From positions 241,738,001 to 241,802,000 of the forward strand of contig OZ024742.1 of the NCBI GenBank assembly GCA_964016885.1: DNA of 64,000 nt, given 5' to 3'. Both the position numbers and the translations under genes were made by a program. Numbering within the stretch: position 1 is the first letter of the stretch; every line of letters begins with the position of its first letter. Shown piece after piece: positions 9,081 to 55,514 of this stretch. Under the pieces are notes generated by a model, which saw nothing but the letters and a program-made list of their open reading frames with translations, did no database searches and had not been told where the DNA came from. The stretch comes from Eledone cirrhosa. Lineage: Eukaryota.

Positions 9081-10853
9081 TTCTGTGCAACACACACGCA
9101 CATACACGCACACACACACAACACACACACACATATATATGCAAATTTTTATGGAGCGTGTCAAATGGAGTGCTCAGTATCATAGGGGAGCGTTAAGATT
9201 GGTTCGGCAGCCTGTTACTAAGGGTTTTCCACGACATATTACTGCTTCCTCAGACAGAATATATATTCAAAGGGCTTCCATGCTGTTTCCATCTACCACT
9301 CCTATTCATAAGGTATTAAGACACCCGACGCTTTAATATACACTAACGAAAATATTAAATTATAAGTATTTTACATTAAAAATACATTACTTAAATATGG
9401 TATATTATTACGTTACTGTATTAAATAGATATAAGAAAGTTACCTGCTATATTGGTCTAATCTAGCGTGTTTATATCATTATAAAGCAGAACCTGTATAT
9501 GATTTATCAAATAAAGTAGATCCCACACAATCAGTTTACAGGAAATTCCATATATCACAAGGCATTCAATGAAGCAATTATTTTGGAGAGACAATTAATT
9601 CACACAAAAAACATAAAATATGTTTTTAATTAAATTTTCTCAAAACAACACCTTACCTGACGGATTTCTCCATATTTTTCGTGGAACCTCGAGCTTACCA
9701 AGAACCCATTTTGTGAAACAATGCCTGAGATAAAATATTTTGACCTAGCTGTGTTTCATAACTTTTGTTGCAATTAGAACAACGCATTTTCCCTCTGCCA
9801 GTGAAATATCCACAAAAACATTTTAATGTTGTGTTAATTCATTTATAATATCCGTGATCTGTGACTTGATTCTCTCTCACTATCGTAGTTATTTAATGAC
9901 ATTTTTTTCTTTCTTGCTCCATCACTTCCACACGACTTTCTTAATTACGAAACGCAACGTAGAGTTCAGCTTCAATAGATTAATTCGTTTTCCTATAATC
10001 GTGAATTGTTTGACTTTCTATTATATACGTATTTGTATAACAAATGTTATATAAAATACCTTGCAGCAGTTCGTTGTAGAATCTCTCCATCAAGTGGAAT
10101 TGGAATTTCACTTTGTAGCCTTTCAGCCTTTCTAAGGATTATTTGACAACAGATGTACTGTCATCTTAAAGTGAAGGGCATAAAGTTGAGATGTTTTATT
10201 GATACAGAGTTTCTCCAAAATGCATAATTAAACACATTTTGGTACCTGAATTGAGATATTACTTTAAATCCTGGAGTACTTCTATAGCTCTTCTGTATCA
10301 CTCTCGCTATTTTAGTGTAATGATGTTAATATATAATTATGTGTATATGCGACCGAAAAACACTCCATTCTATAACCCTCTTTAAAAAAGAGAAAGCCCA
10401 CGCTGCCCGCAACCGTAACAAGCTCACTGAAGTAATATACACACTACTCATAATGGAACAGAATGGGTCCAACAGGCAGTGATAACATATAAGCGCGATA
10501 ATACATAAACTGCTATGAAAAAGAAACTCTGACCTTATTTTTAGGGTATTTCTTCTGAGTAAATATGCAGTAGAATTTCGTATTTATGGAACTACAGAAG
10601 ATATTGGCAAGTCGATAACCCCAGAACACAATAATTGTAATTCTGTATCTAGCTGGACGAGCCAAGCCTAGTGGCTTTAATATTTTCACGGTCAATTTTA
10701 ATTACCGCCGTCCCAGTAAAAAGAAGGCTCTGTTGTTAGTTTTCTGATGGGAGTAAATATTGGCCTAATGTCACCTTAGCTGAATTAATAGATTATATAT
10801 ATATATATATATGTGAATGATATATATATATATATATATATATATATAGATGA

Positions 10854-10902
10854 GATTCTACAGGACTAGAACTGTTTCATTCTTTAGAAATCATCAGGAA
10901 TC
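10854..10902 (-). ncRNA. Type I hammerhead ribozyme (family C)
   Basis: gattc-CTGATGA-t ttc taaa gaa t-GAAA-cag ttctagtc ctg-TA-gaatc, between two (TA)n runs. Confidence 0.75.
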
Positions 10903-11873
10903 AGGAATATCTATATATGTACACACACACACATATATACATATATATGTCTCTCTCTCTCTCTCTCTCTCTCTCTCTCTCTATATATATATATATATAT
11001 ATATATATATATATATATATATATATATATATATATATATATATATATATATATATATACATACATACATATATACACACACACACACATATATATATAT
11101 ATATATATATATATAGGTGTGTGTCCGTGTGTGTGTGTGTGCTGCAACCTATAGGTTCGAAAAAACAACAGATCTATAAAATAACTACTTGAATGTAAGA
11201 AATAGTGTCGATAGGATTGAATAAACGTTTTCAGGCGGCGTCCCAACATGGCCACAGTGTAATGACTAAAATCTGTAAAAGAATAATGGTAAAAAGAATA
11301 AACATTATGATTTTCACACGGAGGCGCACACACTTAATTCACAGATACACGCTGAGTTATTTAGTTAGGTTAAACCATGTGTGTATGTCTTTGCTTGATA
11401 ATCGTTATCTAAACGTGGATCTGGCACCTTAAGCCAGACATCTAATTAGGCCACTCTAGGTGGTGATAAACTCGTCTCGTCGCATATAAGTTGAATCATG
11501 TCCAAGACATTCAACAAGGAAAATGTTTTCATATTTATATGGAATTTAGTTCCTTGCAACTGTTGAAAGAAATTAACAACAATTTGTTTTTTTATTACGT
11601 GGTACTTAGCTGATTGTGGTGTATGGGTACAATCGGTAAAGCATCAGGAAAAAAGGCTTTGAGCTATTTAGTTCAAATCTTGCTGATGTCAACTTTGCCT
11701 TTTATCCTTCTTGGCTCAATAAAATAAAGTACCAGTCAATTTTCATTTGATCCACCTTGCCCTTCCTCAAAATAGGCTGGCCTTCTGCCTAAATCAGAAT
11801 TCATTATTTGGAACTTACATGATACTAAGAATGTTTGCTATAAGTTATTAAATTCACATTAAACCAATATAAT

Positions 11874-12059
11874 TGTTTCTACGTTTGGCACAAGACCAGC
11901 AAATACCCAGTGCATTACTGGTACTTTATTTTATCGACCCCATAAGGATGAAAGGCAACGTTAACCTCGGCGGGATTTGAACTCAGAATGGCAATGGCCG
12001 TAACTCTATGCTGCAAAGCATGGCGTCCGACCCTCTACCGATACTGCCAATCCCCCGCC
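11874..12059 (-). mobile_element. tRNA-derived SINE, full length
   Basis: A-box-like TGGCAGTATCGG, B box, conserved body; flanking direct repeat caatataat. Confidence 0.9.
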
Positions 12060-12322
12060 CCAATATAATGACGTATTCTCAATTTCAAAATGTTGTGTTC
12101 TTTGTGATAGAGAGCCTCTTTGATTAAGCTTGTCTTAGAGACACAATTTAAAATCACAGTTCAAGCTGTAAAGCTACTGAGTAATCGCAGGTTTGGGACT
12201 ATGGCACCGTTTCTATCAGTCCATCCGAGCTATTTCATCTATATCGCTAATACCTTTGCCAGAATTTATTGATGTCATTTCCCATATGCTGGTATTTTTT
12301 ATCCTGCTTGGTTTCATTATTT

Positions 12323-12731
12323 TGGCAGTATCGGTAGAGAGTCGGACACCATGCTTTGAAGCATAGAGTTACGTCCCTTTATGATCTGAGTTCAAATCCC
12401 GCCGAGGTTAACTTTGCCTTTCATCCTTACGGGGTCGATAAAATAAAGTACCAGTAATGTACTGCGTAATTGCTGGCCTTGTGCCTAAAATAGAAACAAT
12501 TATTTTAATAATTTCAAGGGCGGTGGATTGGCAGTATCGGTTGAGCGCCGGACACCATGCTTTGTAGCAGGGAGTTACGGCCCTTTACGTTCTACGTTCA
12601 AATCCCGCCGAGGTTAGCTTTGCCTTTCATCTTTACGGGGTCGATAAAATAACGCACCAGTAATGCACTTAATTTAATCGACTCTTACCGCCCCCCTCCA
12701 AATTGCTGTCTTTGTGTCTTAATCAGAAACC
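12323..12731 (+). mobile_element. Two tandem SINE copies (12323-12498 and 12518-12731)
   Basis: The second copy is flanked by the 19-bp TSD attattttaataatttcaa (12499-12517 and 12732-12750). Confidence 0.9.
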
Positions 12732-53894: not shown

Positions 53895-54680
53895 GTGATG
53901 TTGCTATTCCATTCATGTTTTCTATTTAATTTTGGTTGGATTTCATTTATGTTTATTGCCTCTGTGATTTGTCTATCTTGATTCTCTGTGATTTGTCTAT
54001 CTTTATTGCCACTGTGATTTTTTTCTATCTTGAAGCTCTCGCCAGTGTTCATTTATCCGTCCTCCTATACTACGAGCTGTCTCACCTATGTACACTATAT
54101 TCTTATCTCTACATTGTCCTTCAGTATATCTTATGCTATATACTACATTTCTAGTTTTACAGTTAATATGGGGGCTTAGTTTACAGATTATACATTTCTT
54201 ATCTATACAGGGAGGTCTTTGAAAATGGTATGTATTGCTAATAAGTGTTTTTATGGAGGTACCTGGTCTTTCTACTATCTTAATATTGAGTTTATGTTTA
54301 TCTAGGGCCCTTCTAAATTTGTAAGCTAATTCACCTCTAGGGGTTGTATTGATGAACTTTACACTCTGGTATTTATTGCTATCATACCATGAGTTTATTC
54401 TATTAACCTTATTCCTAGTTCTTTCTATTCTATTCCAAAAGTTGCTCCTATACAAGGGGCAGGTCCCATTTGTATCATTATTTACCATTTTTTCCCATTT
54501 GGTTCTGGCTCCTCTATATACTCTGATTTTATCTCTCTTATTGTAACCAGAGAACTGCATACGGTGGATGAAGTGTTGTATGTGTCTCTCTAGTTCTTTG
54601 GGGTTGCACATGCGGGACACGTTTCTCATCACCCGTACCAAATCTGCAATCAGTATGTTGATTTTGGTGTGGTCCGAAAT
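53895..54680 (-). pseudogene. PLE RT-thumb plus GIY-YIG endonuclease (deleted/frameshifted)
   Basis: LVRVMRNVS...MQFSGY...C....C..C.....CKTRNVVYSI...YIGETARSIGGRINEH, then RQITEAININ..PKLNRKHEW in another frame. Confidence 0.9.
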
Positions 54681-54684
54681 ATAT

Positions 54685-54898
54685 ATTTATTAAAATAACA
54701 GATTAAAGTTTAAGCAAAGAATCGCTGCTTTTACCCTTAACAGGATCTTCCGAAACTAAAAACTTTGCAACCTTCGGTTGCTACGTTTTTCAAAATATTT
54801 ACTTCCGCCTTCACAGATTGATTTTTTTCAGAAGATCCCGTTAAGGGTGAGAGCAGCGATTCTTTGCTTAGACTTTAATCTATTATTTTAATAAATAT
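54685..54898. repeat. ~75-bp-arm inverted repeat at the PLE 5' junction
   Basis: Arm taaaataacagattaaagtttaagcaaagaatcgctgct; also found at 27210-27260. Confidence 0.75.
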
Positions 54899-55257
54899 TT
54901 GCTCTAGGGTGCTTATATATTTCATATATATTTATTCTTATGGAGCCCTCTTTGGATTTTAGTCTCCACATTTAGTTCAAATCGAGCTGAGGTTAACTTT
55001 GCCTTTCATCCTTACGGGGTCAATAAAATAAAGTACCAGTAATGCACTGGGTATTTGCTGGCCTTGTGCCAAAAGTAGAAACGATTATTATTACTATATA
55101 TATATATATACATATATATATATATACATATATATATATATATATATATATACATATATATATATATATATATATATATATATATATATATATATATATA
55201 TATAATATAGAAATGGCTTCTACCGGACTAGAACTGTTTCATTCGGGAGAAAACATG

Positions 55258-55308
55258 GGCTTCCTGATGACTTCTCCCGAATGAAACAGTTCTAGTCCTG
55301 TAGAAGCC
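55258..55308 (+). ncRNA. Type I hammerhead ribozyme (family C)
   Basis: ggcttc-CTGATGA-c ttc tccc gaa t-GAAA-cag ttctagtc ctg-TA-gaagcc; preceded by an inverted partial copy (55204-55250). Confidence 0.82.
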
Positions 55309-55514
55309 ATTTCTATATTAAATATTTATACTCTGCTATGTATTGAATACCTTACTGACTGTGGTTACCCCGATTGAACCCAGGATAAACATATATAAAT
55401 ACACACACACATATGTATATATATATATATATATATATATATATATATATATATATATATATATATATATATATATATATATGAGAAAAACCACAGACCC
55501 TCCATCTCAACTCA

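What the first reader, a model, noticed from the sequence alone, without database searches (positions are those of the whole stretch)
10846..55390. Family C: all five loci start at the ribozyme; back-to-back sense/antisense HHR pairs
Loci at 10846, 23207, 41133, 51666 and 55204 begin within a few bases of stem I and span the cleavage site; four are palindromes. At 41209-41332 two identical intact HHRs face away from each other 6 bp apart, so transcription from either strand contains one. Stem I covaries (gattc/gaatc versus ggcttc/gaagcc). Stem II always opens with a U.U or C.U mismatch before ttc/gaa. Retention of an uncut site implies an uncleaved or re-ligated (possibly circular) template.
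Basis: partly seen in the sequence, partly recalled or inferred. Interest (0 to 1): 0.72.

Follow-up and report, generated by a model that had tools for sequence, protein, structure and literature searches.

The report
Penelope retrotransposon stubs with hammerhead ribozymes
The five spots are short stubs of an abundant Penelope-like jumping gene (Hydra clade) that begin at its hammerhead-ribozyme motif, likely because the gene's RNA starts there, and the mirror-image pairs likely form when that uncut RNA is copied twice from two fixed start points, which would make a long-open question about how these elements insert testable.

Summary
The five loci are real and are end fragments (pseudo-LTR, pLTR) of a young, abundant Hydra-clade Penelope-like retrotransposon (PLE); full copies with an intact 714-aa RT-endonuclease frame lie elsewhere in the genome. 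Genome-wide, 5' ends pile up at the first bases of hammerhead stem I (21 of 39 arm hits at -8..+2, 0 at the cleavage site), 30 bases behind a conserved TATA box: likely the transcription start, so the template is an uncut linear RNA; a circle is not needed. Four loci are head-to-head pairs, but only 41209-41332 has two intact hammerheads, and the palindrome would bury them (about -100 versus -3 to -8 kcal/mol). Pairs nearly always join a tail-less arm (end A) to a tailed arm (end B; 54 of 58, no B+B), and the tail-less arm reaches further 5' in 30 of 53 against 12: a single folded-back cDNA cannot explain these; two primings likely do. The U.U mismatch is a published Hydra-clade trait; inverted pLTRs with a one-sided tail are a known PLE layout. 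No RNA data; cleavage untested. The scan reached the same reading before on other repeat families of this genome.

The parts
10844..10902 (-). Subfamily C2 single arm, -5..+53 (end A, no tail); intact type I hammerhead motif 10854-10902, predicted cut after 10859; about 7 re-copied bases at 10903-10909
23208..23268 (-). Subfamily C1 arm ending at A (-1..+59); core intact but no stem I 5' strand
23268..23395 (+). Subfamily C1 arm with tail (end B); catalytic core mutated
41132..41267 (-). Subfamily C2 arm with tail, -5..+129 (end B), 98.5% to the pLTR of full-length copy L116; intact hammerhead motif 41217-41269, predicted cut after 41224
41268..41273 (.). 6-bp spacer, a templated re-copy of the core's first bases at the head-to-head junction
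   Evidence: templated origin read from the sequence
41274..41332 (+). Subfamily C2 arm, -5..+53 (end A); intact hammerhead motif 41274-41322, predicted cut after 41317
51666..51700 (-). Subfamily C1 arm, -3..+31, cut off before the cleavage site where it abuts another repeat
51705..51763 (+). Subfamily C1 arm ending at A; core GAAA changed, no stem I 5' strand
55204..55256 (-). Subfamily C1 arm ending at A (+3 onward); core incomplete
55258..55390 (+). Subfamily C1 arm with tail, -6..+127 (end B); intact hammerhead motif 55258-55308, predicted cut after 55302

Best explanation
The five loci are end fragments of a Hydra-clade Penelope-like retrotransposon, likely made when its reverse transcriptase primes at two fixed sites near the front of an uncut RNA and runs off the RNA's predicted start at hammerhead stem I. 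Shown: identity with the pLTR of full-length copies; two fixed outer ends (A at about +53 to +66, B at about +127 to +129) against (TA)n; a sharp 5' wall at -7..-3; A+B pairing; junctions differ from copy to copy; both arms share sequence variants. Inferred: the wall is the transcription start; each end of the cut target primes one antisense cDNA (one at A, one at B, likely on the same RNA); the two cDNA 3' ends are joined head to head through 1-4 bases of homology, short re-copies or filler, often using the ribozyme's own self-complementary stems. The back-to-back hammerheads would thus be a by-product, silenced in the hairpin.
For: Full copies pLTR-ORF-3'UTR-pLTR; 7 further complete ORF copies 99.1-99.4% identical to L116; fold closest to telomerase RT; Hydra motifs. 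Wall: young C2 arms end at -5..-7 in 12 of 30, at -12 in 1, run on 58 bases or more in 17; C1 arms end at -3..-6 in 21 of 30 (read by eye); evenly spaced 1.2 Mb: 21 of 39 arm hits at -8..+2, 12 at +3..+35, 0 at -59..-9, 0 at the cleavage site; in contigs of run X1 the commonest loose end lies at -3 (93 contigs; X1 may be the source sample). TATA box at -36 in both subfamilies though the bases between differ; C2 has an initiator-like CCAGATT with A at -6 (consensus and 30-base spacing recalled). 3 of 17 ORF-linked copies with an intact motif also start at -6, -8, -12. Pairs: 54 A+B, 4 A+A, 0 B+B of 58; tail-less arm further 5' in 30 of 53, tailed arm in 12, level in 11; 5 of 53 tailed arms start at +39 or later, so the arms hardly overlap, as in twin priming. 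Arms of one insertion are more alike than in all 2000 shuffles for C1 (55 pairs) and all but 4 for C2 (11 pairs). In vitro a PLE protein cuts and extends both strands, primes at two internal sites that bound the tail, and uses unprocessed RNA (PMC11167929).
Against: No RNA evidence: the start site is a prediction. 12 of 39 arm hits stop inside the ribozyme (+3..+35), so stalling or resection also acts. 14 of 17 ORF-linked copies run on upstream of the wall, which needs read-through, a template jump or a circle. Some single copies carry a few inverted bases at the wall, which looks like true fold-back, and 12 of 53 pairs fit a fold-back from B. Shared variants may also come from gene conversion between arms or from two RNAs of one source. 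22 of the 58 pairs were selected on the tail, so the A+B share rests on the other 36 (32 A+B, 4 A+A). A genome-wide count of junction types is missing; counts rest on the loci in hand.
Confidence: 0.68

Rival explanations
1. One cDNA primed at B stalls at the ribozyme's structure or at the RNA end, folds back on itself and copies itself as far as A (self-priming snap-back).
For: Explains the lack of B+B pairs and the shared variants; 12 of 53 pairs have the tailed arm longer and several single copies carry short inverted stubs; self-priming was proposed for PLE palindromes (PMC3846280 Discussion, there on an antisense template).
Against: It requires the tailed arm to reach at least as far 5' as the other; the reverse holds in 30 of 53, by 10 bases or more in 15, and 5 pairs hardly overlap. 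The ribozyme fold is weak (-2.6 to -8.3 kcal/mol), a poor block.
Confidence: 0.15
2. The template is a self-cleaved, re-ligated circular RNA; reverse transcription crosses the ligated site and stalls at stem I.
For: Cleavage site retained in nearly all copies; partial tandems and a 12-unit array of about 1.08 kb exist; circles were proposed for PLEs (PMC4209133).
Against: A circle has no end, yet the wall is sharp and lies 30 bases behind a TATA box; an uncut linear RNA explains the retained site and was the dominant substrate in vitro; units of the array share variants in a pattern that suggests DNA-level duplication (read by eye).
Confidence: 0.1
3. The palindromes are a selected, independent mini-element (a hairpin master copy or a bidirectional ribozyme cassette) that spreads as a unit.
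For: Very abundant, and a few junction forms recur.
Against: Most junctions differ, also among the young C2 pairs; only 1 of 4 window pairs has two intact motifs; the hairpin buries the ribozyme; a gradient from stubs to full-length copies with the same two ends exists.
Confidence: 0.05

Closest known systems
Hydra clade of C-terminal endonuclease PLEs (Craig et al. 2021, PMC8557442; passages, section 11, supplement searches and part 2 of 59 read)
   Same: Single ORF with RW[K/R], DKT, CxCX5C, CxxC, CxH, no CCHH; (TA)n targets; type I hammerhead in the pLTR whose listed cores often read ctgatgat...tgaa, i.e. a U.U at the base of stem II.
   Different: Repeat unit about 4.8 kb because of a 2-kb microsatellite-rich 3' UTR (published ones generally under 3 kb); tail about 65-75 bases against 30-40; stem II only 3 bp, loop III 8 nt. 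Not the published Hydra-1_Obim family: its printed N-terminal sequence and hammerhead differ (by eye).
PLE insertions with an inverted 5'-truncated pLTR and a one-sided tail (PMC8557442 Fig. 2 legend; PMC3846280 passages and Discussion)
   Same: Head-to-head inverted copies, palindromic junctions, tail at one end only.
   Different: Here the junction is pinned to the ribozyme's 5' edge and a predicted start site; the published explanation (self-priming on an antisense template) does not fit the arm-length data.
Minimal hammerheads of metazoan PLEs (Cervera and de la Pena 2014, PMC4209133; parts 1-2 of 4 read)
   Same: Type I motif in pLTRs, thousands of solitary copies, extra base after A9, dual motifs on opposite strands 100-700 bp apart in Schistosoma.
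   Different: A 4-bp stem III, no G10.1-C11.1 pair, and pairs only 0-20 bases apart.
Poseidon element PAc (Frangieh et al. 2024, PMC11167929; parts 1-2 of 4 read)
   Same: Two internal priming sites bounding the tail, both strands cut and extended, uncut RNA as template.
   Different: Other clade; the parts read do not address inverted copies or a 5' wall.
LINE-1 twin priming (passage in PMC10760644)
   Same: Two primings at one target site, cDNAs joined by microhomology, 5' inversion.
   Different: In L1 the two parts cover different RNA stretches (recalled); here most overlap to give palindromes, and the two sites are fixed.
Non-LTR retrozymes (bioRxiv 10.64898/2026.07.22.740005; part 1 of 5 and passages read; supplements closed)
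   Same: Non-coding, type I hammerhead, derived from PLE pLTRs.
   Different: Defined as head-to-tail tandem units; the window loci are single or head-to-head. One 12-unit array of this family elsewhere (L309-L310) does fit.

Membership tests
Hydra-clade PLE | Single ORF with telomerase-like RT and C-terminal GIY-YIG endonuclease | tested here: met
   714-aa frame in L116; model pLDDT 92.8, top fold matches TERT; GIY-YIG weak in Pfam for the element itself (E 0.02-0.09), above cut-off in homologue P0075
Hydra-clade PLE | RWK motif, DKG changed to DKT | tested here: met
   RWR at 38 (K in 75 of 104 aligned rows), DKT at 116
Hydra-clade PLE | CxCX5C linker, CxxC and CxH around conserved E and N, no CCHH | tested here: met
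   C566/C568/C574, C666/C669, C694/H696, cysteines invariant in 104 rows; no CCHH seen between the GIY-YIG halves (by eye)
Hydra-clade PLE | Insertion into (TA)n; hammerhead in the pLTR | tested here: met
Hydra-clade PLE | Placement inside the clade on an RT tree with published members | not tested
   published sequences were seen only as cut text in the supplement; no tree built
Hydra-clade PLE | Generally shorter than 3 kb | tested here: not met
   pLTR-to-pLTR about 4.8 kb in L116 owing to a 2-kb simple-repeat 3' UTR; a descriptive trait, not the clade's definition
Type I hammerhead ribozyme | Core CUGANGA, GAAA, NUH and three helices, with compensatory changes | tested here: met
   4 motifs at 3 of 5 loci; two compensatory pairs in stem I between C1 and C2
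Type I hammerhead ribozyme | G10.1-C11.1 pair typical of canonical motifs | tested here: not met
   U.U or C.U then U-A; the U.U is common in listed Hydra motifs
Type I hammerhead ribozyme | Match to an Rfam hammerhead model | tested here: not met
   none up to E 10 on two short stretches; none among the 150 rows shown of 265
Type I hammerhead ribozyme | Self-cleavage | not testable with these tools
   needs an assay
Non-LTR retrozyme | At least two head-to-tail units each with a hammerhead | tested here: not met
   window loci single or head-to-head; met only by an array elsewhere
Non-LTR retrozyme | Circular RNA intermediate | not testable with these tools
   no raw RNA reads available

The most novel reading that the evidence does not exclude
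The mRNA of this Hydra-clade element begins exactly at hammerhead stem I, so the ribozyme is a cap-removing switch at +45 and only uncut RNA is copied; one (likely dimeric) RT complex primes the same RNA at two fixed sites from the two ends of the target break, the downstream cDNA displacing the upstream one, and at the template's end the enzyme re-aligns and re-copies a few bases as telomerase does. This would be the general origin of the inverted pLTR with a one-sided tail in Penelope-like elements.
Probability: 0.3. Interest if true: 0.68.

Novelty: new member of a known kind. Interest (0 to 1): 0.42.

Why it matters
The element class, its hammerhead and the inverted layout are known, so the loci themselves are ordinary. 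What matters is that tens of thousands of dated junctions constrain a step that the field calls open (how PLEs make tandem and inverted insertions; PMC8557442): they argue against a single snap-back and against a circle for the short copies, and for two primings on an uncut RNA. Because near-identical intact copies exist, the model can be tested directly in the published in vitro assay, for a clade that has not been characterised in the papers read. The family also seeds many perfect hairpins and carries 2 kb of microsatellite per full copy.

Tried and rejected
Rfam: no hammerhead family hit; the microRNA hits are artefacts of microsatellites and of the palindrome. Pfam missed the RT and gave GIY-YIG only below cut-off; phmmer against PDB gave nothing useful. 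No piece of the ORF lies in the window. No RNA holder listed; only contigs could be laid, which cannot show a start, an end or splicing; no intron-like joint in the tail was seen there, which shows nothing either way. Cap-derived extra G: 5 of 6 single C1 arms ending at -6 in the pattern-anchored set carry G at -7 where long copies have C, but two abut G-rich tail stubs, the first search set (9 of 12) was biased by its query, fold-back gives the same G, and C2 does not show it clearly; kept as a hint only. Target-site duplications cannot be read in (TA)n. score only the 40 best candidates; the 15 pairs's loci were left out of the arm-length count as biased, and one pair from another set was dropped with them (58 pairs remain). 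The 39 arm hits include one arm split in two and one stub counted twice. A 'palindromic master element' and an LTR-retrozyme reading were rejected (see rivals; no type III motif, no PBS/PPT looked for). Literature searches found no paper tying PLE palindromes to twin priming or to the transcription start; the library lacks most subscription papers (e.g. earlier Penelope work is known to me only by recall), 58 of 59 parts of the Craig supplement and all bioRxiv supplements were not read and may bear on this.
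Full report
Numbering: C3 of the hammerhead core is 0; stem I's 5' strand is -6..-1; the predicted cut lies between +38 and +39.

1. The observation. BLAST within the window finds five copies of the family and no more. Four are head-to-head pairs; 10844-10902 is one arm. 41209-41332 is a perfect palindrome of 59-bp arms around a 6-bp spacer, with an intact type I hammerhead motif on each strand. A strict motif scan gives 4 hits in the window (10854, 41217, 41274, 55258) and at most 1 in 3 of 200 block shuffles. 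The pairs at 23207 and 51666 hold no intact motif and 55204 holds one. Stem I differs between subfamily C1 (GGCTTC/GAAGCC) and C2 by two compensatory pairs; stem II opens with U.U or C.U. Rfam does not recognise the motif. The motif's own fold is weak (-2.6 to -8.3 kcal/mol when forced; not better than shuffles), whereas the palindromes fold at -84.5 and -99.6 kcal/mol, so a read-through transcript would bury the ribozyme.

2. What the family is. Walking out from the repeat led to full-length copies: pLTR with hammerhead and tail, an ORF of 714 codons from the ATG, about 2 kb of TA/TG microsatellite (76% simple repeat), 400 conserved bases and a second pLTR. Seven further complete ORF copies are 99.1-99.4% identical to L116, so subfamily C2 is young; the window's 41132 arm is about 98% identical to its pLTR. 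The protein has 1407 relatives at E <= 1e-10 among 7993 candidates scored, folds with pLDDT 92.8 and matches telomerase RTs best. It carries the motifs that Craig et al. give for the Hydra clade (PMC8557442 section 11). Their supplement lists Hydra hammerheads, many with the same U.U at the base of stem II, so that trait is clade-wide. Exact 29-base words occur 3622 (C2) and 1177 (C1) times (arms, not insertions). 120 evenly spaced 10-kb stretches of seven large contigs hold 23 clusters at 21 loci, about 52,000 loci genome-wide (Poisson 95% 32,000-80,000).

3. Ends. Outer ends fall at two sites: A (+53 or +60 in C2, up to about +66 where it merges with TA) and B (+127 to +129), both against (TA)n. 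The stretch between is the PLE 'tail'; in a Poseidon element it lies between two in vitro priming sites (PMC11167929). Inner (5') ends show a wall: in the first 30 C2 matches in genome order 12 end at -5..-7, 1 at -12, 17 run on for 58 bases or more; in C1 21 of 30 end at -3..-6 (by eye). In the evenly spaced sample 21 of 39 arm hits end at -8..+2, 12 at +3..+35, none at -59..-9, none at +36..+42, 4 beyond +42 and 2 run long. None of 31 tail-selected arms starts at the cut. So the template was uncut, as in vitro. Both subfamilies have TATAAATA starting at -36, and C2 an initiator-like word with A at -6; by the usual 30-base spacing (recalled) the start would be -6, on the wall. Three of 17 ORF-linked copies begin there too; the other 14 run on upstream and need read-through, a jump or a circle.

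4. How the pairs form. Of 58 unique pairs from the sample, tail-selected and pattern-anchored sets, 54 join an A arm to a B arm, 4 are A+A, none B+B; without the tail-selected set 32, 4 and 0 of 36. A single cDNA primed at B and folded back must leave the B arm at least as long at its 5' end; instead the A arm is longer by 3 or more bases in 30 of 53, the B arm in 12, level in 11, and in 5 the B arm starts at +39 or later, so the arms barely overlap (e.g. L141, L154). A cDNA primed at A cannot supply the tail. Two primings are therefore needed for most pairs (inference). The two arms share variants more than shuffled pairs do, and the near absence of A+A and B+B suggests one RNA primed at both sites rather than two free choices. 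Junctions are mostly unique, so the palindromes are made anew at each insertion. Fold-back likely contributes to a minority.

5. Comparison. Inverted 5'-truncated pLTRs with a one-sided tail are the standard PLE layout; opposite-strand hammerhead pairs were noted in Schistosoma; self-priming on an antisense template and circles were proposed; twin priming is proposed for L1. Five searches found no paper that ties PLE palindromes to twin priming or to the start site, within a library that lacks most subscription papers. The scan's own notes reached the same reading on other repeat families of this genome; my reading was fixed before that call and I did not check their loci, so they are not support.

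6. Verdict. New member of a known kind. The value lies in the mechanistic constraint and in an intact young element with which to test it. Interest 0.42.

Noticed in passing
L116:4927-6950 (and other full copies): Each full-length element carries about 2 kb of TA/TG microsatellite in its 3' UTR (76% simple repeat), so it spreads its own preferred target sequence.
   Followed up: partly
L309-L310 (G000:C1:83679000-83699000): Head-to-tail array of 12 units of about 1.08 kb, each with the C2 hammerhead and tail: a retrozyme-like satellite of the element's 3' end; shared variants in units 5, 8 and 12 hint at DNA-level duplication.
   Followed up: partly
window 51338-51623: A second, unrelated palindromic repeat (91% arm identity) with a hammerhead-like centre, directly beside the 51666 locus; related pieces at 41376-41720, 51156-51337 and 20633-20826.
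   Followed up: no
window 948-998 (-), 4516-4587 (+), 34610-34674 (-): Another family of type I hammerhead-like motifs with a short stem III, likely stubs of a different PLE.
   Followed up: no
window 55309-55390 and L116:2684-2746: The tail holds branch-point-like and acceptor-like words just before the ORF and a donor-like word on the opposite strand; a short 5' UTR intron as in Penelope is possible; no RNA data.
   Followed up: no
L052 junction: A run of about 16 C between the two arms, suggesting untemplated C addition at a cDNA 3' end.
   Followed up: no
window 32435-33575 and 36127-36844: Long ACC-rich tandem arrays with 105- and 93-base periods giving open Thr/Pro-rich frames.
   Followed up: no
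whole window: Five family loci in 64 kb against about 1.1 expected from the genome sample; the window is rich in (TA)n targets.
   Followed up: no
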